Shown: positions 36,362 through 45,790 of the stretch, piece after piece
Numbering within the stretch: position 1 is the stretch's first letter
Layout: every line of letters begins with the position of its first letter
Source: Bacteroidota bacterium
GTDB taxonomy: Bacteria > Bacteroidota > Ignavibacteria > UBA10030 > SZUA-254
Assembly: GCA_030019075.1 (NCBI GenBank)
Contig: JASEHD010000002.1
Location: forward strand, 1-61,794
Length of the DNA: 61,794 bases
Direction of reading: 5' to 3'
Program-made: the position numbers and the translations under genes
Notes under the pieces: generated by a model
Told to the model about the DNA's origin: nothing
Databases searched by the model: none
The model's input: only the letters and a program-made list of their open reading frames with translations

Positions 36362-38044
36362 CTATTTCAAGCGAATGTTAACTCCTTCGAGGGGCCAGCG
36401 CGCACGCAGTTTTAAAGTATCTGAATAAATTGAATATCGTTCAGCGGGTGTAAAAGGGAACGGTTTACCGAACGAATAGCTTCCATTACTATCAGCATCA
36501 TGAAATGCTGAGAGTATGTACATACCTTCAAATAGATTTTCAAATAAAAATTTTCCGATGGAGTCAGCCACCTGCCAATACGGCTTCGTTTGTTTCTTCG
36601 AAATATTTATCGCATTGACAAGAATATTCTGTTTCTGGTTTTCGTCAATCACTGTTCCGCTTATGCTGCTCAAAACCTTCTCTTCCACAGTCTGGAACTT
36701 TAATATTGAGATACTGTCTTTGAACGAATTTCCTGAGTAATCAATCACCGAATCCAATTGAATTTTAATTGTGTACCACATACCTAAATAAAATCTCTTC
36801 AAAGGAATGAAAAATGCTTCGGTTGAATTCTGCCAACGAAATCTTCCTTCAACTTTTTTATCGAGCGAATCAGTCAGTTTAAAACCATTTTCAAAAGATT
36901 TTACCAGTACTGCTTCACTAAATTGAATGTGAATCGTATCGTCGATAGGAATTTCTTTCGAATTGTTCCTTATATTTTTAATTTTCATTTCTGGTTTACT
37001 GGTGTCGGAATTTAAACTTGAATTAAATTCAGCCATATTTGTCGGGATTTTCATCAAATTCCCTTTTACATCTTTGAAGCCATTCAAAAGGACCCGGTAC
37101 ACTCGGTCAATCTCTTGTTTGTCAGTTACTATTTGAGCTTCCTTGTAAGGTGTTTCTGTAAATGAAAAATCAAATACGTTTAATGAAGTATTCGAAAGAG
37201 TATCAACTATCGAAACACTATCAATATTACCTGAGGTGATCTCCATTGATTCACTGAAACGGAGAAGAACATGACTCCAATCTATTGCACGAGCGCTTGA
37301 GAGAAATGGGGCAGCAGTATCCTCTTCTATCAATCGAAATTGAATCCCAATACGATGGAGACTATCGGAGCTTAGCATGATATCTGATGAAAACGTACCG
37401 TATTTGTCTATCTGCGGCTCGTACAGTAAATTTTTATAAGCATCCCGGACGGCTATCACACGATAAGTTCCGAATGCCAAATAGGGAAGAAGAAACGAGC
37501 CATCTTTCCCGGTTTGCGTCAGATAGTCTGGCTTTACTTTGGAAGGATTCAGTGTATCCGAAATTCGGCTGTCAAGTTGATAAGCGAATATCATTATCCC
37601 GTCAGGTTTATCATCATGTACGATGCCCGACATCGATGCCGAGTCTATCCTATTGCCTGTCGAAAATGGTAATGAGAACGCCTGCGCCATTTTGTTATTA
37701 CGTGTATCCTTGACATCCGTTCCAATTGTAACAACATAAGTGGTATTATTTCGTAAAGAATCCGAGAATAATATTTCAACATCCTTTCCACTCCACTCAA
37801 ATTCAAGTTCACCAAGTGATGGTGAGATGAAGAACGATTCTTGAAGTGTTCGTCTATCAATGTATTTATCAAATGAAAAAGAAAATCTATTATCATGGAA
37901 TTGCAGCGTTCCCGGCTTTGGATAAGTCTCAATAATCTTAGGTGAAGTAGTGTCGGGCGGACCACCAGAGGGAGATTGAATGCCGGCGCAGTGGAATGTA
38001 GTGATAATCAAACAAAGTATTGATCCGATTTTTACTGTATTCAT
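36362..38044 (-). CDS. Ig-like (SbsA/Big_5-type) domain lipoprotein
   Basis: 560 aa. N-terminus ITTFHCAGIQSPSGGPPDTTSPKII, typical of Ig-like domain lipoproteins. It is beta-rich throughout, with a DUF2141/CarboxypepD_reg-like tail. Confidence 0.55.
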   Translation of the reverse strand: MNTVKIGSILCLIITTFHCAGIQSPSGGPPDTTSPKIIETYPKPGTLQFHDNRFSFSFDKYIDRRTLQESFFISPSLGELEFEWSGKDVEILFSDSLRNNTTYVVTIGTDVKDTRNNKMAQAFSLPFSTGNRIDSASMSGIVHDDKPDGIMIFAYQLDSRISDTLNPSKVKPDYLTQTGKDGSFLLPYLAFGTYRVIAVRDAYKNLLYEPQIDKYGTFSSDIMLSSDSLHRIGIQFRLIEEDTAAPFLSSARAIDWSHVLLRFSESMEITSGNIDSVSIVDTLSNTSLNVFDFSFTETPYKEAQIVTDKQEIDRVYRVLLNGFKDVKGNLMKIPTNMAEFNSSLNSDTSKPEMKIKNIRNNSKEIPIDDTIHIQFSEAVLVKSFENGFKLTDSLDKKVEGRFRWQNSTEAFFIPLKRFYLGMWYTIKIQLDSVIDYSGNSFKDSISILKFQTVEEKVLSSISGTVIDENQKQNILVNAINISKKQTKPYWQVADSIGKFLFENLFEGMYILSAFHDADSNGSYSFGKPFPFTPAERYSIYSDTLKLRARWPLEGVNIRLK

Positions 38045-40692
38045 TTAATAATCTCTTTCAATTCTTTTACATGCTTAAACTCAACCCCTTCAAACTCAGC
38101 AAAATGTTTATAACCGCATTTCACTTTTTGCCATTCGGAGGTTCGCAAATCATCATAATGGACTGACGATTTTGTTTCAGCAACAAAGTAAAACCGCTTT
38201 TCTTCTTTCAATACTAGCGCCCAATCAGGTCTATACTTTCCGATTGGCGTATCTATGTAGAATCCACGCGGGAGCTTCATGAAAAACTCTATGTCATCGT
38301 CATCCTCACAATCCTTGGCAAACTTTTTCTCCGGTTCTGACATTGAATCAATCGCGATGTAATTGTAAAGCGTCTTCTCATGTTTTCTTACTTGATAAAG
38401 AGCATCGATATATTGTTCAATCTCATCATCCTCGAACAATCTCATCTCATAATATTCATCCGCGATCTTCTGATATTTTATCCCGTCCACCATCAGCTTT
38501 GCAAGCACAGAATTTATCTCTTTCACAACGGCATCAAGAAATAACTGCGGATTCTTCAAAGCATCTCCCAGACGTCCAGACCCTTTAAGTATCCTATGTA
38601 TCGTTCCTCTCGTTAAATTGGTTTTATCCTGGATGTAGCCAGCAAGATCAGGAATGACAAAGTTAGGCGAATCAATGGCGAATGCTTTAATCTGTTTCGA
38701 CTCGCCTTTAATGCCTTCCTTTACCATCTGCAATTCGGTTTTCTGGAAAATAATTTTCGGTGATGTTATCTCGGCAATCTCTTTGATTCTTCTTACAGCT
38801 TCCTTAACAAGTTCAGCCGTGTCGTACTGAACTTTATAGGTTGTTTTTTGCCTAATTCTTTCCCATAGTTCTTTGAACGCTTCATCCATCTCGTAGCCCT
38901 TCTTCAAACGCACGGCTACTTTGTCTTCTTTCTTCTTTATCCTGCCTTCAAACTTATCGCCCGTCTCACGCTCGATTTCATTTTGCAATTGTTTTGCGAA
39001 ATCTTCATAGCTCTCATTGGCAACAACTGTCAACCGATTGATGTTTTTATCGAAAACCCTATTCCCGTCGCTTGCCACAGATAAGCGTAACCCACGACCG
39101 ATTTCCTGCCGCTTCTTCAACTCCGATTTTGTCTCGTTCAATGTGCAAAGCTGAAAGACATTTGGGTTATCCCATCCTTCACGCAAAGCAGAATGACTGA
39201 AGATAAACCTCAGCGGCTCGTTTACATCCAACAATTGCTCTTTATCTTTCATGATGAGATTGTAAGTATGCTCGTCATCCTCCGATGACCTTCCTTCACG
39301 CGAGTCTTTCAAGATTCCTTTTTTATCTTGTGCAAAATATCCGTTATGAACTTTCTCGACTTCGTACGGTAAGAGTCCCTTGTATTCTGGTTTCTTCGAA
39401 AACACGGTAAACGTTTGTTCAAACCATTCAGCAAATTTACCTTTACCGACAGTACCACTTTCGTATGTGCGATAATTTTTAACTTTGTCGATGAAAAAGA
39501 GTGAGAGTACTTTAATTCCTTTGTCCCTCATTTTTAATTCTTTCTTGAAATGTTCCTCAACCGTCTTGCGAATTTGGACTTTCATGATCTCGTCTTGAAA
39601 ATCTCCTAAAACATTTCCCACAACAAGCTTGATTCCGTTGGTAAAAGATAGCGTCTTCTCTGTTGCATCTATTTCATCTACGATGTAGCCATCTTTGTAC
39701 ATTTCACGATGATTTGAAAGCTCGTGAAGGTTATCTCCAACCTTCACATTTATTGCTTTCCTCTTTACCCCTTCATCTGAGTTACAATCCAGAGAAACCT
39801 TTGCCGTAACTTTCGTCGGAAGCGATTTTATACTTTCAAGCTTGATAAATGCCTGATTATAACTCTGCTCTGTTACAACCGAATCAACCTCGATTTGTTT
39901 TACCAAACCTAAATCGTAAGCTTGCACCGGACCTAATCTGTACACCTGATTGTACAACTCTGTATGAGTAGCAGAGTATCTTAATGTACAGCAAGGGTTT
40001 AAGCTCTGGATTGCCTTCTTGCGGATTGGGGTCTCCATATTCTGCGGCTCATCAACGATGACGATTGGATTTGTATGCTGTATGAATTCAATCGGGCGCT
40101 TGCCTGTTAGCTTATCGTTGTTTTTGTTGATGATATTATCGTCCTTTGCAAACGAGTCGATATTTATTACGAGTGCTTGTATTGTATTGCTTGTTGCAAA
40201 TCCTCTCAGCAGCGAAACGTTCTTTGAGTCGTAAACAAAAAACGATAACGGCACTTTATTGTATAGCATCTGGAAATGCTCGTGCGTAATTTCAAGATTC
40301 TTCAGCACCCCTTCGCGTATAGCAATGCTTGGTACAACAATTATGAACTTCTTGAAGCCGTACTTCTTATTCAGCTCATATATTGTGCGTAGATAAACAT
40401 AAGTTTTCCCAGTGCCCGTTTCCATCTCAACGGAAAAGTTTTTCCCTTCCAACCTCAACGATGGTGTTAGCCCGTTCCGCTCTTGTATTCTTTTTAGATT
40501 TGTCAGCAGGTCATCATCATGGAGTACAATTTTATTACCGACTCCATATTCGGTAAACGTAAGACTTCCTTCCGCTTGAGCGAGCGAGAATTCATAATCA
40601 CCTTTGCTTAACGGCTGGCCTTCAAACAAATCAACAATAGATTGGATTGCCTGAAGCTGGTATTCTTGATTGGAATCGAACTGTAGTTTCAC
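38041..40692 (-). CDS. res: Type III restriction-modification system restriction subunit (Res, SF2 helicase-nuclease)
   Basis: 883 aa with a GTG start. Walker A EMETGTGKTYVY, motif II IVIVDEPQNM and SF2 motif VI QEIGRGLRLSV. It is adjacent to a Type III mod gene. Confidence 0.87.
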   Translation of the reverse strand: MKLQFDSNQEYQLQAIQSIVDLFEGQPLSKGDYEFSLAQAEGSLTFTEYGVGNKIVLHDDDLLTNLKRIQERNGLTPSLRLEGKNFSVEMETGTGKTYVYLRTIYELNKKYGFKKFIIVVPSIAIREGVLKNLEITHEHFQMLYNKVPLSFFVYDSKNVSLLRGFATSNTIQALVINIDSFAKDDNIINKNNDKLTGKRPIEFIQHTNPIVIVDEPQNMETPIRKKAIQSLNPCCTLRYSATHTELYNQVYRLGPVQAYDLGLVKQIEVDSVVTEQSYNQAFIKLESIKSLPTKVTAKVSLDCNSDEGVKRKAINVKVGDNLHELSNHREMYKDGYIVDEIDATEKTLSFTNGIKLVVGNVLGDFQDEIMKVQIRKTVEEHFKKELKMRDKGIKVLSLFFIDKVKNYRTYESGTVGKGKFAEWFEQTFTVFSKKPEYKGLLPYEVEKVHNGYFAQDKKGILKDSREGRSSEDDEHTYNLIMKDKEQLLDVNEPLRFIFSHSALREGWDNPNVFQLCTLNETKSELKKRQEIGRGLRLSVASDGNRVFDKNINRLTVVANESYEDFAKQLQNEIERETGDKFEGRIKKKEDKVAVRLKKGYEMDEAFKELWERIRQKTTYKVQYDTAELVKEAVRRIKEIAEITSPKIIFQKTELQMVKEGIKGESKQIKAFAIDSPNFVIPDLAGYIQDKTNLTRGTIHRILKGSGRLGDALKNPQLFLDAVVKEINSVLAKLMVDGIKYQKIADEYYEMRLFEDDEIEQYIDALYQVRKHEKTLYNYIAIDSMSEPEKKFAKDCEDDDDIEFFMKLPRGFYIDTPIGKYRPDWALVLKEEKRFYFVAETKSSVHYDDLRTSEWQKVKCGYKHFAEFEGVEFKHVKELKEIIK

Positions 40693-41558
40693 GATTTTTC
40701 CTTATTTCCGTTTTTCCTCTTAGACAATTTCTTCACACTCTTGAGCATCTTCTTATCTTCTGAATCTACATGACGTTTCAATTTCTTAACGTCTTCTTCA
40801 GGCGGTAGGGCTTCGGGCTTAATACCTCGATCAAGAAGAACCTTGCGAACACCTACATTGCTCTTGATATGTTCCTTCGTGATTTTCTCTTCGCCTTTTA
40901 AGTCGTCGCGTTTAACATTGAAATTTGTTATCTCAGTAGCAAAATCTTTTGCTTTGATTGTTATTGTCGGAAGAAAATCTGCTAATGCTCTGCTCTGAGG
41001 CACACCAAGCTTATTCTTCATCTCATGAGTAGCGTAGCCACCGAAAAGAGCTTTATCTCCTTTGCTTCTAATACGAGCAAATCCCTGATCGTCCACTCCG
41101 CGTTCAAAGATAATACCTGAGAGTTCCCGCTCCGATTGTGAAAGCTTCTCTCTGGCTTGTAATCGTTCCCAAATACCTATTCGCTTTTCAAGAATTTCCT
41201 GCTTCCTCGTTTGAACGGCAAAGTAACTCATAGCAAATGCAATCTGCTCTTTTCTCGGATCACCATTCTGGGCAATAAGATAGCAGGCATAACGGGTTAG
41301 CATGAGGTCGTCAATTTCTTTGCTTGCACCTTTTGGCATCGGGATCGTCTTTGTTATCTCCAGAAAATGATCGTAAATATCTTGTCCCGCATTTTTACAA
41401 GCTATTCTTGCCTTGTCAATCACTAATGTAAAATTACTCCATTTGGAGTAACCTAGTAGCTCTTGTAATGCTCTTGCATACCAAAACTCGGTATCTTCGT
41501 GCTCTTGACGAGCAGATTCGAAGTCTCTTGTTAATTCGCGTATAATCTCAGTTTTCAT
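40689..41558 (-). CDS. dinD: DNA-damage-inducible protein D (DinD) homologue embedded in the RM operon
   Basis: 289 aa. The sequence LGYSKWSNFTLVIDKARIACKNAG...DHF...LTRYACYLIAQNGDPRKEQIAFAMSYFAVQTRKQE parallels E. coli DinD (LSRYACYLVVQNGDP...YFAIQTRRQE, from memory). Confidence 0.82.
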   Translation of the reverse strand: MKTEIIRELTRDFESARQEHEDTEFWYARALQELLGYSKWSNFTLVIDKARIACKNAGQDIYDHFLEITKTIPMPKGASKEIDDLMLTRYACYLIAQNGDPRKEQIAFAMSYFAVQTRKQEILEKRIGIWERLQAREKLSQSERELSGIIFERGVDDQGFARIRSKGDKALFGGYATHEMKNKLGVPQSRALADFLPTITIKAKDFATEITNFNVKRDDLKGEEKITKEHIKSNVGVRKVLLDRGIKPEALPPEEDVKKLKRHVDSEDKKMLKSVKKLSKRKNGNKEKS

Positions 41559-41590
41559 AATATTAAGTCCTCGCTCTATTTAATCATCCT

Positions 41591-41618
41591 ATCGTTTTAC
41601 CGGCGTCGGTAAAACGAT
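41591..41618. promoter_or_regulatory. 12-bp-stem hairpin in the mod-dinD intergenic region
   Basis: ATCGTTTTACCG-GCGT-CGGTAAAACGAT forms a perfect stem. Confidence 0.5.
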
Positions 41619-41671
41619 CAAAAATATTCCCAATTGATATTTTTTGCTTATTATCCATTTCATTGTATACC

Positions 41672-41693
41672 ATTTTGTTGACGTCAACAAAAT
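41672..41693. promoter_or_regulatory. 22-bp perfect palindrome immediately downstream of the mod stop
   Basis: ATTTTGTTGACGTCAACAAAAT lies 5 nt from the mod stop codon (41699..41701). Confidence 0.5.
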
Positions 41694-41698
41694 GAACA

Positions 41699-43747
41699 TC
41701 ATATCACCTCAAATCCTATTCCAGCATCTCTCATCTGCAACACCGTGTTTGTTTTTATTTGATCGTTGCCGTTAAAAAGCTTGTCGAGACATATAAACTG
41801 TTTCGGTTTGCGTTTTATAATTTCTTCGATCGCTTTTTCATTGATTGTATTTAGCGCAATCATCATCTCACCATCGGCAACGCTGTACATGCAGACATCT
41901 TTTACAGTCAGTGTCTCCAGCTTTGCAGTCAACTCGTAACCAGATTTTAGCAAAATTTCCCACGCCATATTTTCTTCTGTCGACAACGATTTCACAGGGT
42001 CGGCAAATGCTTCCATCTGATTCTTCAAGTCTTCTTCGTTCTCGATCGTATCTGTTCGCCATATTTTAAAGTTAGATGGCTCCAACCGGAATACTTTGAA
42101 ACCCAAATCAATATTCCCGGTAGCCGCAGACTTTATGTCTGCGTTCTCAGTGCTCGCACCCGTAAAGGGTGCGGCTACCGCCCCATGCAACGACAATTCC
42201 TCTTGTTTCCCCTTTTTATCATTTTTATCACCGTCATCAGCGGTATCAGCGGTTCTGATTTTTTTTATCACTCTCCTTATCCTTTCCTTGCATATCTCCG
42301 CAATTGTTTTGTAGCCCGCTTTGTATGCCTCCGATTCTTCACCTGTTTTCTCGGGCAGTTGGACAAGTATAAACTTCCGATTACCGCTGTCTTCTCTGTT
42401 CAACTCCAACACCGCCTGTGCTGTTGTGCCGCTACCAGCGAAGAAATCTAGAATAATATCATCTTCATCAGAACAATTTTTCAAAAAAGATTTTATTAAT
42501 TCTGGTGGTTTAGGATTGTCAAATATATCTTTTACAGAAAAATATTCTTTCAAGACATTCGTACCATCACCTGTTCTTGCCAAATTATATAGAATACTTC
42601 TTATTTTGATTCTCTTATTCAGATTATCTTCAAAATAAATTTTTTCATAAGGAATCCATTGATCATTTTTCTTTTCCCAATAGACCAAGTCATTCTGAAT
42701 CAAAAATTCCATTCTTGGTTTTCCGACTCTCCATCTGCCTTCATTACCGTCTGGTGCAAAGGGATAAAACAATTTTAAATCTGGAGCTTTAATTGCAAAG
42801 TGCATTGTGGGTCTATCTTCTTTTCTTGCACCACTTCCCCATTTTGCTAATTTAATTGCTTTAAATTTCCCTTTCTCATCATTTTTATTGAATTCACTTT
42901 CATCAGCCATGAATATTTCATCTTTCCAAATGAAATTTTCTGATTTTTGAAATACCAAAATAAATTCATGTTCAGTTACAAAATATTCATCTGTCTGACC
43001 TCCGCCTTCTTTTTTTCTCCAGACAAAAATTCCCACAAAATTCTCTTCACCAAAAATCTCATTCATCAACAGACGCAGGTTGTGCACTTCGTTGTCGTCT
43101 ATGGAAACAAATATCACTCCGTCGTCTTTCAGCAGGTTGCGGGCAAGGAACAATCGCGGGTACATCATCGAGAGCCAGTTGGAGTGGTAGCGTCCGCTAT
43201 CTTTGCTGTTCTTACGGAATAATCCCTCCTTTGTTAAATAGCCCTCCTCATCCATCTCGCCAATGCGTTTTAAATACTCTTCCTTCGTCTCGGAGAATTT
43301 ATCGGGATAAATGAAATTGTCGTTACCCGTATTGTACGGCGGGTCGATGTAAATCATTTTAATCTTGTTGTAATAGCTTTTCTGCAACACCTTCAGCACT
43401 TCGAGGTTTTCACCTTCGATGAAGAGATTGTCTGAACCACTGATCTCGCTGATTAAATGATTCCGCTGATTTTTTATCTTATTATCATAACCATCAGGGT
43501 AATCAGCGGTCATCAACGGTTCAGACAGTGGCTTCAAAGTAGCTGTTGTCGGTGTCTGTATAGCTCTGAACGCATCGGACTTGCCCGCCCAGTTGAGGAC
43601 GTACCGCTCGTCAGTAATAGTTAAATCTTCGCCGAGAGTTAGCTTGAGCTTTTCAAAATCGATTTTACCTTCTGAAATGATTTCCGGGAAAAGCGATTTT
43701 AATTTTTCAAGTTGTTCAGATATTATATCTAATGATTTACCGTCCAT
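41699..43747 (-). CDS. mod: Type III restriction-modification system DNA methyltransferase (Mod, N6-adenine/N4-cytosine class)
   Basis: 682 aa. Motif IV is IYIDPPYNTG. The AdoMet motif is DFFAGSGTTAQAV. The layout is typical of Type III Mod. Confidence 0.9.
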   Translation of the reverse strand: MDGKSLDIISEQLEKLKSLFPEIISEGKIDFEKLKLTLGEDLTITDERYVLNWAGKSDAFRAIQTPTTATLKPLSEPLMTADYPDGYDNKIKNQRNHLISEISGSDNLFIEGENLEVLKVLQKSYYNKIKMIYIDPPYNTGNDNFIYPDKFSETKEEYLKRIGEMDEEGYLTKEGLFRKNSKDSGRYHSNWLSMMYPRLFLARNLLKDDGVIFVSIDDNEVHNLRLLMNEIFGEENFVGIFVWRKKEGGGQTDEYFVTEHEFILVFQKSENFIWKDEIFMADESEFNKNDEKGKFKAIKLAKWGSGARKEDRPTMHFAIKAPDLKLFYPFAPDGNEGRWRVGKPRMEFLIQNDLVYWEKKNDQWIPYEKIYFEDNLNKRIKIRSILYNLARTGDGTNVLKEYFSVKDIFDNPKPPELIKSFLKNCSDEDDIILDFFAGSGTTAQAVLELNREDSGNRKFILVQLPEKTGEESEAYKAGYKTIAEICKERIRRVIKKIRTADTADDGDKNDKKGKQEELSLHGAVAAPFTGASTENADIKSAATGNIDLGFKVFRLEPSNFKIWRTDTIENEEDLKNQMEAFADPVKSLSTEENMAWEILLKSGYELTAKLETLTVKDVCMYSVADGEMMIALNTINEKAIEEIIKRKPKQFICLDKLFNGNDQIKTNTVLQMRDAGIGFEVI
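42118..42252. repeat. multi-hairpin plus ATCAGCGG-word segment lying in-frame inside mod
   Basis: The 10-bp inverted repeat CGGTAGCCGC/GCGGCTACCG (42118..42127 and 42171..42180) encloses hairpins GCAGAC-TTTAT-GTCTGC and GCACCC-GTAAA-GGGTGC. This is followed by CATCAGCGG TATCAGCGG (42235..42252). Confidence 0.7.
43447..43520. repeat. second CGCTGATT/AATCAGCG word palindrome in-frame inside mod
   Basis: CGCTGATT (43447..43454) and CCGCTGATT (43463..43471) face CATCAGGGT AATCAGCGGT CATCAACGGT (43492..43520). Confidence 0.65.
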
Positions 43748-43871
43748 AAAAATATTCCATCATTTCAATCAAATAAATGATAATGATCAGAGGTACAAAT
43801 TTATAAAATTTCAATAATATAGCAATTTCTTTTTTATTATCAATCGTTATATTAAATTATAGAAATTACTT

Positions 43872-44777
43872 ATGCGTATCGCAATCATAGGTTCAGGTGG
43901 GGTTGGTGGATACCTTGGTACCAAGCTTTGGAAAGCAGGGAACGAGGTTGTCTTTATTGGACGTGGTGATCATCTCACTGCAATGCAACGTAATGGCTTA
44001 CGACTCGAAAGTCCGGAGGGCAGCTTCACCGTTAAATCGACATTCACTGACAACCTCGATGGCTTTATACCGTTCGATCTAATCGTCATCGGTGTCAAAT
44101 CATTCGATACTGAATCTGCCGCTAAGTTAGCTCGCCCCGTCCTGAAGAGTGATACTATCGTTCTTAGCATTCAAAATGGAGTTGAAAATGAAGAACTCCT
44201 TGCGAATATACTTGGTGAGCAGCATATCATTGGTGGTGTTGCATATATCTTCAGCACTATCGCGGCTCCCGGAGTTATACGGCATGAAGGCGGCACAGGC
44301 AAATTCAAGTTTGGCGAGATGGATGGAACTATAAGCGAGCGCTGTTTAACATTGAACGAAATATTTCATAAAGCCGAAATCAATTCTGAACCTATCGAAA
44401 ATATCCGTCGGTTGTTATGGGATAAGTGGATATTTATATGCGGACTTGCAGGTATGACGGCATACACCAGAAAAATGATCGGAAAAATCATTTCAGATTC
44501 AGAGCTGAAATCGATGCTGAATAATGTTGTTCAGGAAGCAACACTGATCGCACGTGCCAAAAGGATTGATCCATTCGAGGGGATTGAGAAAAAAACAATG
44601 AGCCATTTGGAACGATTACCGTTCCGAAGCACATCATCTATGCACCACGACATTACGCACGGAAAACGGATTGAGCTTGAAGCGCTGAATGGTGCGATTG
44701 TTCGATTCGGAAAGGAATTAAGAATCCCTACTCCCGCAAACAAGATCATTTACAATTCACTCAAGCAATTCACTTAA
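43872..44777 (+). CDS. panE: 2-dehydropantoate 2-reductase
   Basis: 301 aa. N-terminal Rossmann motif MRIAIIGSGGVGGYLG and an ApbA/PanE-type C-terminal domain (SSMHHDITHGKRIELEALNG). Confidence 0.85.
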   Translation: MRIAIIGSGGVGGYLGTKLWKAGNEVVFIGRGDHLTAMQRNGLRLESPEGSFTVKSTFTDNLDGFIPFDLIVIGVKSFDTESAAKLARPVLKSDTIVLSIQNGVENEELLANILGEQHIIGGVAYIFSTIAAPGVIRHEGGTGKFKFGEMDGTISERCLTLNEIFHKAEINSEPIENIRRLLWDKWIFICGLAGMTAYTRKMIGKIISDSELKSMLNNVVQEATLIARAKRIDPFEGIEKKTMSHLERLPFRSTSSMHHDITHGKRIELEALNGAIVRFGKELRIPTPANKIIYNSLKQFT

Positions 44778-45790
44778 TCAACCTCTTGGGCGGCTCTTTG
44801 CTCTTCTCTAACTCTTCTATAATCTTTTATCGCTTTTTGATGTTCGCTATATGAGGATGTAAACCTGTGCCCACCCTCTCCTGTTGCCACGAAAAACAAA
44901 TACTTATGCCGTGCGGGATACAGCGCAGCAATGATGGACGCTTTTCCCGGATTGTTGATTGGACCGGGAGGTAAACCATAATGTTTATATGTGTTATAAA
45001 CAGATTCAACCCGATAATCCGAAAATTTCAATCGGCGTAGTTCACCACCAAGTGCAAATTGTACTGTAGGATCTGCTTGAAGCCGCATCCGCTTATGCAA
45101 TCTATTGTAGTATACTCCTGCAACAATCACTCTCTCCGAATCGATTGCTGTTTCTAATTCAATGATCGATGCCATTGTAATGATATTATTTATCGTCATT
45201 CCTCTTCTCTGAGTTTGTTTTTTCATCGATTCATAAAACATCTCCCAGAACTCTCCAACCATTGTTTTAATTATGTCGGTTTCATCGGTTTGCCAGTAAA
45301 AATTGTACGTCTTGGGCATAAGGTATCCCATTAAATTTCCGGCATCTACACCAAGACTTCGTGAGAAGCCTGAATCTTTGACCAGTTTCATAAAGATAGT
45401 TGAGTCAATCCCTAATTTCTCGGAAAGTATCTTAGCTTGGGTTGTTGCACGTAAACCTTCAGGAATCGTTACAGTTATCATCTCGATTGTTTTGCCATTA
45501 CCGATTATATCGACTATCTCGGAATTGGATAAACCACTACGAAAACGGTACTTCCCTATTTGGATCTGAGTTGTTTTTCCAAGAATTCTTCCAGCAAGCT
45601 CAAAAAATGTCCGATTACGTATAATACCAGCACTTTCTAGTGAGTCAGTTATTTTTTTAAATGTTGAGCCTTTTGAGATGAAAATGAATCTATCGCCTTC
45701 AAATTTATTGGGTGCCCCGAGAATTGCATACAGGATAATTAATCCAAAAACAATAATTATTGAAACAGTTATTAAGAATATTTTCTTCAT
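44774..45790 (-). CDS. mltG: endolytic murein transglycosylase MltG (YceG family)
   Basis: 338 aa with an N-terminal TM helix. YceG core: IASIIELETA, LQADPTVQF and YNTYKHYGLPPGPINNPG. Confidence 0.9.
   Translation of the reverse strand: MKKIFLITVSIIIVFGLIILYAILGAPNKFEGDRFIFISKGSTFKKITDSLESAGIIRNRTFFELAGRILGKTTQIQIGKYRFRSGLSNSEIVDIIGNGKTIEMITVTIPEGLRATTQAKILSEKLGIDSTIFMKLVKDSGFSRSLGVDAGNLMGYLMPKTYNFYWQTDETDIIKTMVGEFWEMFYESMKKQTQRRGMTINNIITMASIIELETAIDSERVIVAGVYYNRLHKRMRLQADPTVQFALGGELRRLKFSDYRVESVYNTYKHYGLPPGPINNPGKASIIAALYPARHKYLFFVATGEGGHRFTSSYSEHQKAIKDYRRVREEQRAAQEVD

What the first reader, a model, noticed from the sequence alone, without database searches (positions are those of the whole stretch)
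38041..43747. Type III RM operon with a DinD homologue inserted between mod and res
- The gene order on the minus strand is mod, then a 140-nt spacer, then dinD, then res.
- The dinD stop overlaps the GTG start of res (GTGA), which implies translational coupling of a DinD-like protein with the restriction subunit.
- In E. coli, DinD is an SOS-induced protein reported to act on RecA filaments. Its role in an RM context is not established.
- Possible roles are control of restriction activity, mitigation of self-restriction damage, or an additional effector or sensor. The last would make this a three-component variant of Type III systems.
- The base composition matches the host. The last gene is itself coupled to a core-looking gene.
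Basis: partly seen in the sequence, partly recalled or inferred. Interest (0 to 1): 0.65.

Follow-up and report, generated by a model that had tools for sequence, protein, structure and literature searches.

The report
DinD gene nested in Type III restriction operon
A complete Type III restriction-modification operon carries a well-conserved DinD-family DNA-binding gene between its two core genes; this arrangement recurs across phyla, but DinD is one of many interchangeable defence "cargo" genes in that position, not a third enzyme subunit.

Summary
On the minus strand lie mod (41699-43747), a 140-nt spacer, a 289-aa DinD homologue (40689-41558; NCBIfam DinD E 6e-104, above cut-off) and res (38041-40692). 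The dinD stop overlaps the res GTG (GTGA).

- Mod-DinD-Res is not a one-off. It recurs in at least three chromosomal contexts and several phyla.
- DinD is a promiscuous, horizontally mobile gene. It is already listed by PADLOC as candidate PDC-S13 and has been reported inside Type I operons and fused to HsdS.
- In 75 DinD loci, restriction-modification (RM) genes are enriched next to it (17-20% at ±1 against 1.4% at five or more genes away). Most copies are solo.
- In 59 related Type III loci, 49 have something between mod and res: Gabija-like, TIR, Schlafen-like, AAA+protease, DUF1016 or DinD genes. These are often coupled to res in the same way.

So DinD is embedded accessory cargo under purifying selection, not a core subunit. 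Its role is unknown.

Three things are new here:
- The predicted fold resembles the DNA-break sensor DdrC.
- A 24-30-nt covarying palindrome lies inside dinD genes, with two copies in this spacer.
- The mod-res junction acts as a defence-gene slot.

The parts
41699..43747 (-). mod: Type III DNA methyltransferase, 682 aa
   Evidence: PF01555 E 1.9e-42. PADLOC MTase_III E 7.8e-187. No simple-sequence repeats, so no sign of phase variation. 69% identical to the syntenic Mod of L087, dN/dS 0.27.
43814..43884 (-). sigma-70-like promoter matches upstream of mod (consensus matches only)
   Evidence: Three 10-of-12 matches. Function was not tested, and the organism may use another promoter type.
41559..41698 (-). 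140-nt mod-dinD spacer
   Evidence: Its two palindromes are conserved in the L088 spacer. It is not homologous to the PDDEXK_3 gene that occupies this place in L087 and L006. As RNA the spacer folds with both hairpins, z -3.5.
41671..41694 (.). DinD-box 1: perfect palindrome CATTTTGTTGACGTCAACAAAATG, 4 nt after the mod stop and 112 nt before the dinD ATG
   Evidence: Covariance-model hit 41665-41700, 36.3 bits, E 1e-6. Identical to the palindrome found inside the dinD coding sequence of L087, L088 and L006, and to the one after the mod stop in L088 and L175.
41593..41616 (.). DinD-box 2: palindrome CGTTTTACCGACGCCGGTAAAACG (minus-strand reading), ending 33 nt before the dinD ATG
   Evidence: Covariance-model hit 41587-41622, 32.1 bits. 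L088 has a counterpart at the same distance, -32.
40689..41558 (-). dinD-like gene, 289 aa: Bro-N N-terminal domain, long helix, helical C-terminal domain and Lys-rich disordered tail
   Evidence: NF008573 E 6.4e-104. PADLOC PDC-S13 E 2.2e-113, and a match to the N-terminal 283 positions of a 717-position Type I specificity-subunit profile, E 8e-52. phrog_8036. AlphaFold2 model pLDDT 85.7. Foldseek to DdrC E 6e-6. dN/dS 0.073 against L087.
41340..41375 (-). degenerate internal DinD-box (codons 62-73 of dinD)
   Evidence: Covariance-model hit of 25.7 bits, against 49-53 bits in relatives. The sequence GATCATTTTCTGGAGATAACAAAGACGATC has lost the inner stem.
40689..40692 (-). GTGA overlap of the dinD stop and the res start
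   Evidence: The same 4-nt overlap occurs in L087, L006, L174 and L175. It is generic for the slot.
38041..40692 (-). res: Type III restriction subunit, 883 aa (SF2 helicase plus C-terminal PD-(D/E)XK endonuclease domain)
   Evidence: PF04851, PF00270 and PF19778. PADLOC REase_III E 2.5e-300. 92% identical to the Res of L087, dN/dS 0.060.
36362..38044 (-). downstream Big_5 lipoprotein-like gene whose ATG overlaps the res stop (ATGA). It is a neighbour and probably not part of the system.
   Evidence: The same overlap occurs in L087. It is only 53% identical to the L087 gene, with dS 2.9 against 0.66 for res.

Best explanation
This is an intact Type III restriction-modification operon. It belongs to a lineage in which the mod-res junction serves as a slot for interchangeable accessory defence genes. 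In this genome the slot holds a DinD-family gene.

Shown:
- mod, dinD and res are full length and lie on one strand.
- dinD is translationally coupled to res.
- dinD is kept by purifying selection.
- The three-gene module occurs in several chromosomal contexts and phyla.
- DinD also moves independently. It is enriched in Type I, IIG and III operons and is sometimes fused to HsdS, but it is more often solo.
- Close relatives of this Res have other cargo in the same place.

Inferred:
- DinD is not a subunit needed for methylation or cleavage. It is a co-expressed accessory DNA-binding protein, with a Bro-N domain and a helical domain whose predicted fold matches the DNA-break-binding protein DdrC.
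- The most likely mode of action is that it binds DNA at or near the breaks made by Res, or the RecA filaments formed on them, as E. coli DinD does in vitro. This would alter what happens to restricted DNA, for example by blocking recombinational rescue of cut invader DNA or limiting SOS and self-damage.
- Its own expression, and through coupling that of res, is probably set by the two 'DinD-box' stem-loops in the spacer.

The confidence given (0.5) is a blend: about 0.85 for 'embedded accessory cargo, not a core subunit', and about 0.3 for the specific mode of action.
For: - Identity and anatomy.
- Recurrence of Mod-DinD-Res:
  - L087 and L006 are syntenic with the window (mltG-panE-mod-...-dinD-res-Big_5-SPOR-deoC).
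  - L088 and L175 lie beside a thioredoxin cluster, and L174 beside lon.
  - L012, L026 and L067 come from other phyla.
- Selection: DinD dN/dS 0.073.
- RM enrichment around DinD: the top recurrent neighbour families are all RM (ResIII 9, N6_Mtase 8, Eco57I 8, Methylase_S 7, HsdM_N 6 of 136 neighbours). The share decays with distance, p 7e-9.
- Physical link to RM complexes: DinD-HsdS fusions exist in the PADLOC profile and in Btr190I, where the fused S subunit is active (PMC4996451). A dinD-domain coding sequence lies between Type I core genes (PMC9881135).
- Slot:
  - 49 of 59 related Type III loci have cargo between mod and res.
  - Cargo families include SLFN_AlbA_2, AAA_21/SMC, DUF1016, Bro-N, Eco57I, AAA+Peptidase_S8, TIR and GajA/GajB-like.
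- Fold:
  - The model has pLDDT 85.7.
  - All six Foldseek matches at E<=0.001 are DdrC chains, E 6e-6 to 5e-4, probability 1.0, about 250 aligned columns.
  - DdrC binds pairs of DNA breaks (PMC11347143).
- E. coli DinD inhibits RecA activity: Uranga et al. 2011, as cited in PMC10602874.
- DinD-boxes.
Against: - No experiment links any DinD homologue to restriction or phage defence. PDC-S13 is only a candidate, and no paper in the library discusses it.
- About two thirds of surveyed DinD genes have no recognised RM neighbour. Some sit among housekeeping genes, for example between cysD and cysN, so an RM-independent function is sufficient for retention.
- The DdrC match has low global TM (0.26-0.48) and no significant sequence support (E 0.77).
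- The window protein is only 32% identical to the E. coli protein on which the RecA data rest.
- SOS control was not tested here.
- Whether the boxes regulate anything is untested.
Confidence: 0.5

Rival explanations
1. PrrC-type back-up defence. DinD is a latent effector or guard held in check by the Type III complex. It is released when a phage inhibits or evades restriction, or when DNA breaks accumulate, and then stops infection on its own.
For: - It is embedded in RM operons, like PrrC in EcoprrI (PMC3710099; PMC12707154).
- PADLOC lists it as single-gene candidate PDC-S13.
- It sits near the integrase end of Streptococcus phage satellites and in prophages, where defence genes are often carried.
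- The same slot holds bona fide defence systems: Gabija-like, TIR and Schlafen-like.
- Solo copies are common, which fits autonomous activity.
Against: - No toxin, nuclease or NTPase domain is detectable. The C-terminal half has no Pfam family.
- The fold points to DNA binding only.
- The E. coli chromosomal copy is an SOS gene with no known defence phenotype.
Confidence: 0.2
2. Controller-like regulator. DinD binds the DinD-box palindromes (two upstream of dinD-res here, one inside most dinD genes). It autoregulates and so times or limits res expression, in the way C proteins act on C-boxes in Type II systems.
For: - There are two palindromes upstream of a DNA-binding-protein gene whose stop overlaps the restriction gene. 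Their spacing is conserved in L088 (box 2 at -33 and -32).
- Every dinD examined has at least one box. Where the internal box is degenerate there is an upstream one: window, L063, L170, L095.
- Boxes also follow mod in the dinD-less Type III loci L122, L142 and L168.
Against: - Compensatory changes that keep the arms complementary, with an often asymmetric centre, look more like an intrastrand stem-loop than a protein operator.
- DinD is not an HTH C-protein.
- Most DinD genes are not next to a restriction gene.
- Other cargo in the slot is not regulatory.
- L174 has Mod-DinD-Res with no spacer box.
Confidence: 0.15
3. Passenger. dinD is a mobile gene that lands in tolerant, co-transcribed sites. 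RM operons are such sites because they are themselves mobile and accessory. DinD does its own DNA-damage-related job and contributes nothing to restriction.
For: - Very tight insertions occur in unrelated operons, such as cysD-dinD-cysN with 25-nt gaps and gaps of 0-6 nt in L008, L050 and L064.
- About 60% identity across bacterial and archaeal phyla implies frequent transfer.
- RM and non-RM contexts are interleaved in the DinD similarity ordering.
- Solo copies exist at 78-83% identity.
Against: - The enrichment is specific to RM genes rather than to mobile or accessory genes in general, among recurrent neighbour families.
- Fusions to HsdS exist.
- The three-gene module is maintained through transfer to at least three chromosomal sites, with strong purifying selection on dinD.
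- No conserved insertion junctions or transposase are present.
Confidence: 0.2
4. Integral third subunit. This is a genuine three-component Type III enzyme in which DinD is required for activity.
For: Translational coupling to res. Conserved module.
Against: - Res proteins 57-72% identical work with no DinD, or with unrelated cargo, in the same position.
- In L129 and L130 DinD is separated from res by two other genes, and in L017, L027 and L010 the gene order differs.
- Coupling is generic to the slot.
Confidence: 0.05

Closest known systems
E. coli DinD (PcsA, b3645), SOS-induced RecA-filament modulator
   Same: Same NCBIfam equivalog family (NF008573, full length, above cut-off). Same Bro-N plus helical architecture. 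E. coli dinD also carries the internal palindrome (L001 5932-5967, 34.8 bits).
   Different: - Only 32% identical.
- The E. coli gene is a solo chromosomal gene between yicC and yicG, whereas this one is inside a Type III operon and coupled to res.
- LexA control and RecA inhibition were not shown for this clade.
PADLOC phage-defence candidate PDC-S13, and DinD embedded in or fused to Type I RM systems (e.g. Btr190I S-DinD fusion)
   Same: Best PADLOC match (E 2.2e-113). Same family as the DinD portion of HsdS fusions. Same position, just after the methyltransferase gene.
   Different: - Here the host operon is Type III (mod-dinD-res). I found no description of that in the searchable literature.
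- The candidate status carries no mechanism or experimental support.
PrrC / EcoprrI (accessory gene embedded in a Type IC RM operon)
   Same: An accessory gene nested between core RM genes, co-inherited with them. This is the paradigm for layered defence.
   Different: PrrC is an ABC-ATPase-HEPN anticodon nuclease. DinD has no detectable enzymatic domain.
C-protein / C-box control of Type II restriction genes
   Same: A DNA-binding-protein gene immediately upstream of the restriction gene, overlapping it, and preceded by two palindromes.
   Different: DinD is a 289-aa Bro-N protein, not an 80-100-aa HTH protein. The palindromes show stem-like covariation and usually lie inside dinD itself. Binding was not tested.
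Deinococcus radiodurans DdrC (DNA-break sensing and bridging protein)
   Same: It is the only significant structural match to solved structures. The match covers both domains (Foldseek E 6e-6, probability 1.0). Both proteins belong to DNA-damage regulons.
   Different: There is no significant sequence similarity (E 0.77). TM is 0.26-0.48. DdrC is reported to have no identifiable sequence homologues outside Deinococcus. Homology is therefore a lead, not a result.
Type III systems with an extra helicase-like ATPase gene 5' of mod (Murray et al. 2021)
   Same: Precedent for conserved third genes attached to Type III operons with unknown role.
   Different: That gene lies upstream of mod and is an SF2 ATPase. 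Here the extra gene lies between mod and res and is a DNA-binding protein.

Membership tests
Type III restriction-modification system | Mod subunit with an N6/N4 DNA methyltransferase domain of Type III kind | tested here: met
   PF01555 E 1.9e-42. PADLOC MTase_III E 7.8e-187.
Type III restriction-modification system | Res subunit with an SF2 helicase/ATPase domain and a C-terminal PD-(D/E)XK endonuclease domain | tested here: met
   PF04851, PF00270 and PF19778 (residues 772-877). REase_III E 2.5e-300.
Type III restriction-modification system | mod immediately followed by res in one operon | tested here: not met
   Same strand and order, but separated by 140 nt plus an 870-nt gene. In this Res lineage separation is the rule, seen in 49 of 59 loci.
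Type III restriction-modification system | ATP-dependent cleavage needing two inversely oriented unmethylated sites; hemimethylation by Mod | not testable with these tools
   Needs biochemistry or a methylome.
DinD (NCBIfam NF008573, DNA damage-inducible protein D) | Full-length match above the curated cut-off | tested here: met
   347.3 bits against 242; residues 1-278 on profile positions 1-287 of 288.
DinD (NCBIfam NF008573, DNA damage-inducible protein D) | N-terminal Bro-N domain | tested here: met
   PF02498 E 2.2e-10, residues 21-108.
DinD (NCBIfam NF008573, DNA damage-inducible protein D) | LexA/SOS-regulated expression | not tested
   No LexA-box model for this lineage was available. 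The upstream palindromes are DinD-boxes, not the E. coli LexA consensus.
DinD (NCBIfam NF008573, DNA damage-inducible protein D) | Inhibition or disassembly of RecA filaments | not testable with these tools
   Known only for E. coli DinD (cited in PMC10602874).
PADLOC PDC-S13 (phage defence candidate) | Match to the PDC-S13 profile | tested here: met
   PDLC04919 E 2.2e-113, residues 1-276 on profile positions 1-277 of 281.
PADLOC PDC-S13 (phage defence candidate) | Demonstrated anti-phage activity | not testable with these tools
   No paper in the library mentions PDC-S13.
PrrC-like RM-embedded anticodon nuclease | ABC-type ATPase domain plus HEPN nuclease domain | tested here: not met
   Only Bro-N was found. 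The C-terminal half has no Pfam hit even at E<=10.
C-protein (controller) of RM systems | Small Xre-type HTH protein binding C-boxes upstream of its own gene | tested here: not met
   No HTH family hit. The protein is 289 aa with Bro-N. Two palindromes upstream give only an analogy.
DdrC | Significant sequence similarity to DdrC | tested here: not met
   Profile search of PDB sequences gave E 0.77 with alignment A1 and no hit with A3.
DdrC | Same two-domain fold | tested here: inconclusive
   Foldseek E 6e-6 to 5e-4, probability 1.0 and about 250 aligned columns, but TM 0.26-0.48 and rmsd 10-12 Å.

The most novel reading that the evidence does not exclude
[quoted passage not shown] On this reading DinD is a DdrC-like DNA-break or DNA-structure-binding protein. 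It is governed by a stem-loop ('DinD-box') that it carries inside its own coding sequence, or, as in this operon, upstream. It would act as a second layer or controller of restriction. The function of the classic SOS gene dinD, unknown since 1980 (my recollection), would then be explained as a domesticated copy. The same survey suggests that the mod-res junction of one Type III lineage is a dedicated integration slot for whole defence systems.
Probability: 0.2. Interest if true: 0.75.

Novelty: new member of a known kind. Interest (0 to 1): 0.55.

Why it matters
- Accessory genes embedded in RM operons are the basis of layered immunity, as with PrrC. DinD is among the genes reported between the core genes of Type I operons and has no known role.
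- This locus offers a compact, intact three-gene module, conserved across several genomes, in which that role can be tested by a single in-frame deletion.
- The side results give concrete handles:
  - a predicted DdrC-like fold suggests break binding;
  - a covarying stem-loop inside the gene gives a regulatory element to mutate;
  - the variable mod-res slot is a place to mine for new defence genes.
- If DinD proves to act on restriction-generated breaks or on RecA, it would connect restriction to control of recombinational repair. It would also assign a function to a long-uncharacterised SOS gene.

Tried and rejected
- **C-terminal half of DinD.** The Pfam scan at E<=10 found no family. PDB sequence searches with two profiles gave nothing significant.
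- **Spacer as a remnant of the PDDEXK_3 gene** that occupies this place in L087 and L006: the alignment shows no homology.
- **Spacer palindromes as relics of a dinD pseudogene:** only the 24-30-nt box matches. The flanking translation is unrelated to DinD.
- **Phase variation of mod:** no simple-sequence repeats.
- **Known RNA families:** none at gathering score in the window. Only sub-threshold chance-level hits fall on the boxes.
- **Conserved insertion junctions, target duplications or a transposase around dinD:** none are visible in 75 loci. One weak 56-aa Y1_Tnp ORF beside a solo copy was not pursued.
- **Intrinsic terminator after mod:** none on the minus strand.
- **Labelling Type I HsdR** with the E. 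coli EcoKI sequence as seed found nothing. RM counts around DinD are therefore lower bounds.
- **Literature:** 'PDC-S13' returned no paper. One broad search was swamped by 'Clavien-Dindo'. Uranga et al. 2011 is not held.
- **Not run:** the protein representative search, a second structure prediction, and the third homologue search.

Full report
**1. Observation**

The ORF map confirms three consecutive minus-strand ORFs:
- 41699-43747, 682 aa;
- 40689-41558, 289 aa;
- 38041-40692, 883 aa, GTG start.

A 140-nt gap (41559-41698) follows the first ORF. The sequence shows the middle ORF ending ...AAA TCG TGA, with the res frame starting at the embedded GTG, which is a GTGA overlap. The res stop overlaps the ATG of the next gene, an ATGA overlap.

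Profile searches identify the genes:
- The first ORF is a Type III Mod (PF01555; PADLOC MTase_III E 7.8e-187).
- The third is a Type III Res (ResIII/DEAD plus RE_endonuc; REase_III E 2.5e-300).
- The middle one is a full-length DinD. NCBIfam NF008573 gives E 6.4e-104 and 347 bits against a cut-off of 242. It has a Bro-N domain at residues 21-108.

It is 32% identical to E. coli K-12 DinD. That E. coli gene is a solo gene between yicC and yicG. GC content matches the surroundings.

The flanks are panE, mltG, a T9SS-sorted BNR protein, SPOR proteins and deoC. Together with synteny to an Ignavibacteriales MAG, these place the window in an Ignavibacteria-like genome.

**2. Is the linkage recurrent?**

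Yes. The closest DinD relatives (78-85% identity) were traced to their contigs.
- L087 (GCA_016218025.1) and L006 have the same chromosomal site: mltG-panE-mod-[PDDEXK_3]-dinD-res-Big_5-SPOR-SPOR-deoC.
- L088 and L175 carry mod-dinD-res beside a thioredoxin cluster.
- L174 carries it beside lon.
- L172 and L173 have solo dinD, among nuo genes and next to a small HNH gene respectively.

More distant DinD genes (57-68% identity) lie in mod-dinD-res or related orders in Omnitrophota, Thermodesulfobacteriota, Ignavibacteriota, Peribacteria and Alphaproteobacteria MAGs: L012, L026, L067, L022, L080, L027, L017 and L010.

Between the window and L087, DinD has dN/dS 0.073, Res 0.060 and Mod 0.27. Synonymous divergence of the three RM-module genes is 0.66-1.4. 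For the flanking genes it is 2.7 to saturated. This suggests the module was exchanged more recently than the flanks diverged.

**3. What DinD associates with in general**

A scan of one genome per species returned at least 595 relatives. The best 80 are 57-83% identical. They come from Bacteroidota, CPR groups, Planctomycetota, Verrucomicrobiota, Chlamydiota, Chloroflexota, Proteobacteria and several archaeal lineages. That spread implies extensive horizontal transfer under strong constraint.

Among 136 immediate neighbours, the only recurrent Pfam families are RM families: ResIII 9, N6_Mtase 8, Eco57I 8, Methylase_S 7, HsdM_N 6, Type_ISP_C 2 and N6_N4_Mtase 2. The remainder are singletons of housekeeping genes.

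With my own profile labels, RM genes make up these shares at each offset from dinD:

| Offset from dinD (genes) | Share that are RM genes |
|---|---|
| -1 | 20% |
| +1 | 17% |
| ±2 | 9-10% |
| ≥5 | 1.4% |

The near-versus-far contrast has odds ratio 11.4, p 7e-9.

In all, 26 of 75 loci have an RM gene within four genes. This is a lower bound, because HsdR was not labelled. Type I, Type IIG and Type III contexts are interleaved in the DinD similarity ordering.

DinD also occurs in other settings:
- on plasmids, for example after parAB in Thiothrix;
- between cysD and cysN in Chondrinema;
- in prophages, and in Streptococcus phage satellites near the integrase end.

PADLOC already lists the family as candidate PDC-S13. 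One of its Type I specificity-subunit profiles begins with a DinD moiety.

The literature records two related cases:
- a functional HsdS fused to DinD in Btr190I (PMC4996451);
- a dinD-domain coding sequence between Type I core genes (PMC9881135).

I found nothing on mod-dinD-res, and no functional test of DinD in defence.

**4. The Type III side**

A metagenome scan with Res returned 80 loci at 57-72% identity. In 59 of them, mod is visible upstream on the same strand. Only 10 have mod and res adjacent. The other 49 have one to five genes in between, nearly all on the same strand.

The cargo includes the following:
- SLFN_AlbA_2/HATPase_c_4 proteins, with an approximately 870-aa partner;
- ABC/SMC-like ATPases;
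- DUF1016/YhcG nucleases (PADLOC PDC-S02);
- Eco57I/MmeI-type methyltransferases;
- an AAA/nSTAND3 ATPase with a subtilase;
- TIR proteins;
- a Gabija-like pair (AAA_15 plus OLD-TOPRIM, and UvrD);
- Dcm plus Vsr;
- DinD, as 5 Bro-N proteins.

The last cargo gene overlaps the res start in 16 of 47 loci, by 4 nt in 15 of them. It lies within 20 nt in 13 more. The GTGA overlap seen in the window is therefore a property of the slot, not of DinD. In L129 and L130, DinD shares the slot with an AAA plus protease pair and is not adjacent to res.

**5. What kind of protein is it?**

An AlphaFold2 model built on 77 sequences from two clades is confident (pLDDT 85.7). It shows:
- an alpha/beta Bro-N domain, residues 1-97;
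- a roughly 50-residue helix;
- a helical C-terminal domain, residues 157-273;
- a Lys-rich disordered tail.

The C-terminal half has no Pfam family. Against solved structures, the only significant matches are the six chains of Deinococcus DdrC: E 6e-6 to 5e-4, probability 1.0, about 250 aligned columns, but TM only 0.26-0.48. Sequence-level support is absent (E 0.77).

DdrC is a damage-induced homodimer that binds pairs of nicks or ends. It is described as having no identifiable sequence homologues outside Deinococcus (PMC11347143).

Against viral models, the matches are KilA-N, antirepressor and 'regulatory protein' entries.

No catalytic domain is evident. I therefore read DinD as a DNA-binding protein, possibly binding breaks or DNA structures. 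E. coli DinD is reported to inhibit RecA activity (Uranga et al. 2011, as cited in PMC10602874).

**6. The spacer and the DinD-box**

The 140-nt spacer is not featureless. It holds two palindromes.
- CATTTTGTTGACGTCAACAAAATG lies at 41671-41694, 4 nt after the mod stop.
- CGTTTTACCGACGCCGGTAAAACG lies at 41593-41616, 33 nt before the dinD ATG.

Both are conserved at the same anchor points in L088.

Unexpectedly, the same palindrome lies inside the coding sequence of most dinD genes, at codons 63-72: GAY CAT TTT NNN GAC GTC N'N'N' AAA ATG RTC, encoding DHFxDVxKMV.
- Codons 66 and 69 are reverse complements of each other: GTT/AAC, GCT/AGC, GCC/GGC, CGT/ACG, CCT/AGG, ATT/AAT.
- The synonymous third base of Asp63 covaries with the first base of codon 72: C-G in 42 sequences, U-A in 39, unpaired in 2.

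On 83 distinct sequences:

| Measure | Observed | Control |
|---|---|---|
| Cells paired | 90% | 81.7% in shuffles (0 of 500 reach it) |
| Cells paired, slid registers | – | 28-54% |
| Cells with changes on both sides | 128 | 41.5 |

Synonymous choice is frozen at the stem codons:

| Codon pair | At the stem | Elsewhere in the same genes |
|---|---|---|
| CAT : CAC | 82 : 1 | 179 : 112 |
| CAT : CAC, genes with GC ≥ 0.47 | 25 : 0 | 54 : 53 |
| TTT : TTC | 74 : 10 | 608 : 274 |
| AAA : AAG | 78 : 4 | 1584 : 827 |

E. coli, Neisseria and Streptococcus dinD also carry the box, with a different inner stem in E. coli.

A covariance model finds only three hits in the whole window: the two spacer boxes and a degenerate internal copy. 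Across about 0.9 Mb of other loci, its hits below E 0.05 all fall in dinD loci or in mod-res spacers.

Where the internal box is degenerate there is an upstream copy. This holds for the window, L063, Thiothrix L170 and L095.

Boxes also sit just after the mod stop in three Type III loci that lack dinD: L122, L142 and L168.

The element is not in Rfam. Whether it acts as RNA, as a DNA hairpin or as an operator is unresolved. The asymmetric centre and the compensatory changes favour an intrastrand stem.

**7. Most likely mechanism and rivals**

With high confidence, this is an ordinary Type III system carrying embedded accessory cargo. The cargo is a functional, selected and independently mobile DinD gene. 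It is co-expressed with res and translationally coupled to it.

With much lower confidence, I propose two further points:
- DinD acts on the DNA products of restriction, or on RecA filaments formed on them.
- The spacer boxes set dinD-res expression.

The rivals are:
- a PrrC-like guard or effector;
- a C-protein-like controller;
- a mere passenger;
- a true third subunit, which I consider unlikely.

Each is separable by an in-frame dinD deletion together with binding assays (see next steps).

**8. Novelty and score**

Accessory genes embedded in RM operons are a known kind. DinD among them is already catalogued (PDC-S13, Type I examples). The finding is therefore a new member: a Type III host operon and a conserved three-gene module.

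It is worth moderate interest for three reasons:
- DinD has no established cellular function.
- This module is a clean test bed.
- The follow-up exposed three leads that I could not find described: the DdrC-like fold, the intragenic covarying palindrome, and the defence-cargo slot between mod and res.

Noticed in passing
window 41671-41694, 41593-41616, 41340-41375; L087 8184-8219; L088 7774-7809 and 8184-8219; L001 5932-5967 (E. coli dinD): A 24-30-nt palindrome ('DinD-box') lies inside dinD coding sequences (codons 63-72) across bacteria and archaea. It shows compensatory codon changes and frozen synonymous sites. Two extra copies sit in the window's mod-dinD spacer, while the window's internal copy is degenerate. 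It is not in Rfam.
   Followed up: yes
L122 898-933, L168 2145-2180, L142 2136-2171: DinD-box palindromes lie directly after the mod stop in Type III loci that have no dinD gene. They are either relics of a lost dinD or an element of the slot itself.
   Followed up: partly
L089-L168 (Res-centred metagenome loci), region between mod and res: In this Type III lineage, 49 of 59 loci carry one to five same-strand genes between mod and res. These include a Gabija-like pair (L124), TIR (L132), AAA plus subtilase (L129), Schlafen/AlbA_2 proteins (L121), DUF1016 nucleases and Type IIG methyltransferases (L100). The last of these genes often overlaps the res start by 4 nt.
   Followed up: partly
window 40689-41558 (model m2bef45d3e3c8): The predicted DinD structure matches only Deinococcus DdrC among solved structures (E 6e-6, both domains). 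DdrC is described as lacking identifiable sequence homologues outside Deinococcus. Both proteins are induced by DNA damage.
   Followed up: partly
L087 7544-7960; L006 5248-5664; also L091, L096: A 138-aa PDDEXK_3 (PF13366) gene occupies the mod-dinD gap in the syntenic relatives, where the window has the 140-nt spacer. The two fillers are not homologous.
   Followed up: partly
window 36362-45790 versus L087: Synonymous divergence of res, mod and dinD (0.66, 0.93, 1.40) is well below that of the flanking panE, Big_5 and mltG genes (2.7, 2.9, saturated). This suggests recent exchange of the RM module at a conserved chromosomal site.
   Followed up: partly
L004 3852-4697 (Chondrinema litorale plasmid): dinD is inserted between cysD and cysN with gaps of only about 25 nt on each side. 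Similar near-seamless insertions into unrelated operons occur in L008, L050 and L064. No conserved junction motif was found.
   Followed up: partly
phage records H47-H61 (Streptococcus satellite phages Javan*), about 1.3-2.2 kb from the record end: Full-length dinD homologues sit at a fixed position near one end of many Streptococcus phage-satellite records.
   Followed up: no
L088 7813-7879; L095 about 920-985: A conserved two-hairpin insert of about 65 nt lies between the two spacer boxes in L088 and L095. It gives a sub-threshold Rfam hit to sRNA BjrC68 (25 bits, E 5e-4). It is absent from the window.
   Followed up: no
L172 4795-4965: A 56-aa ORF with a weak Y1_Tnp (IS200-like) hit lies immediately upstream of a solo dinD that is 83% identical to the window's. 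Transposases of this family recognise DNA hairpins.
   Followed up: no
P0131, P0136, P0186, P0205, P0238; L003 6869-8197: Some DinD homologues are 400-440 aa long, with C-terminal extensions of unknown nature.
   Followed up: no
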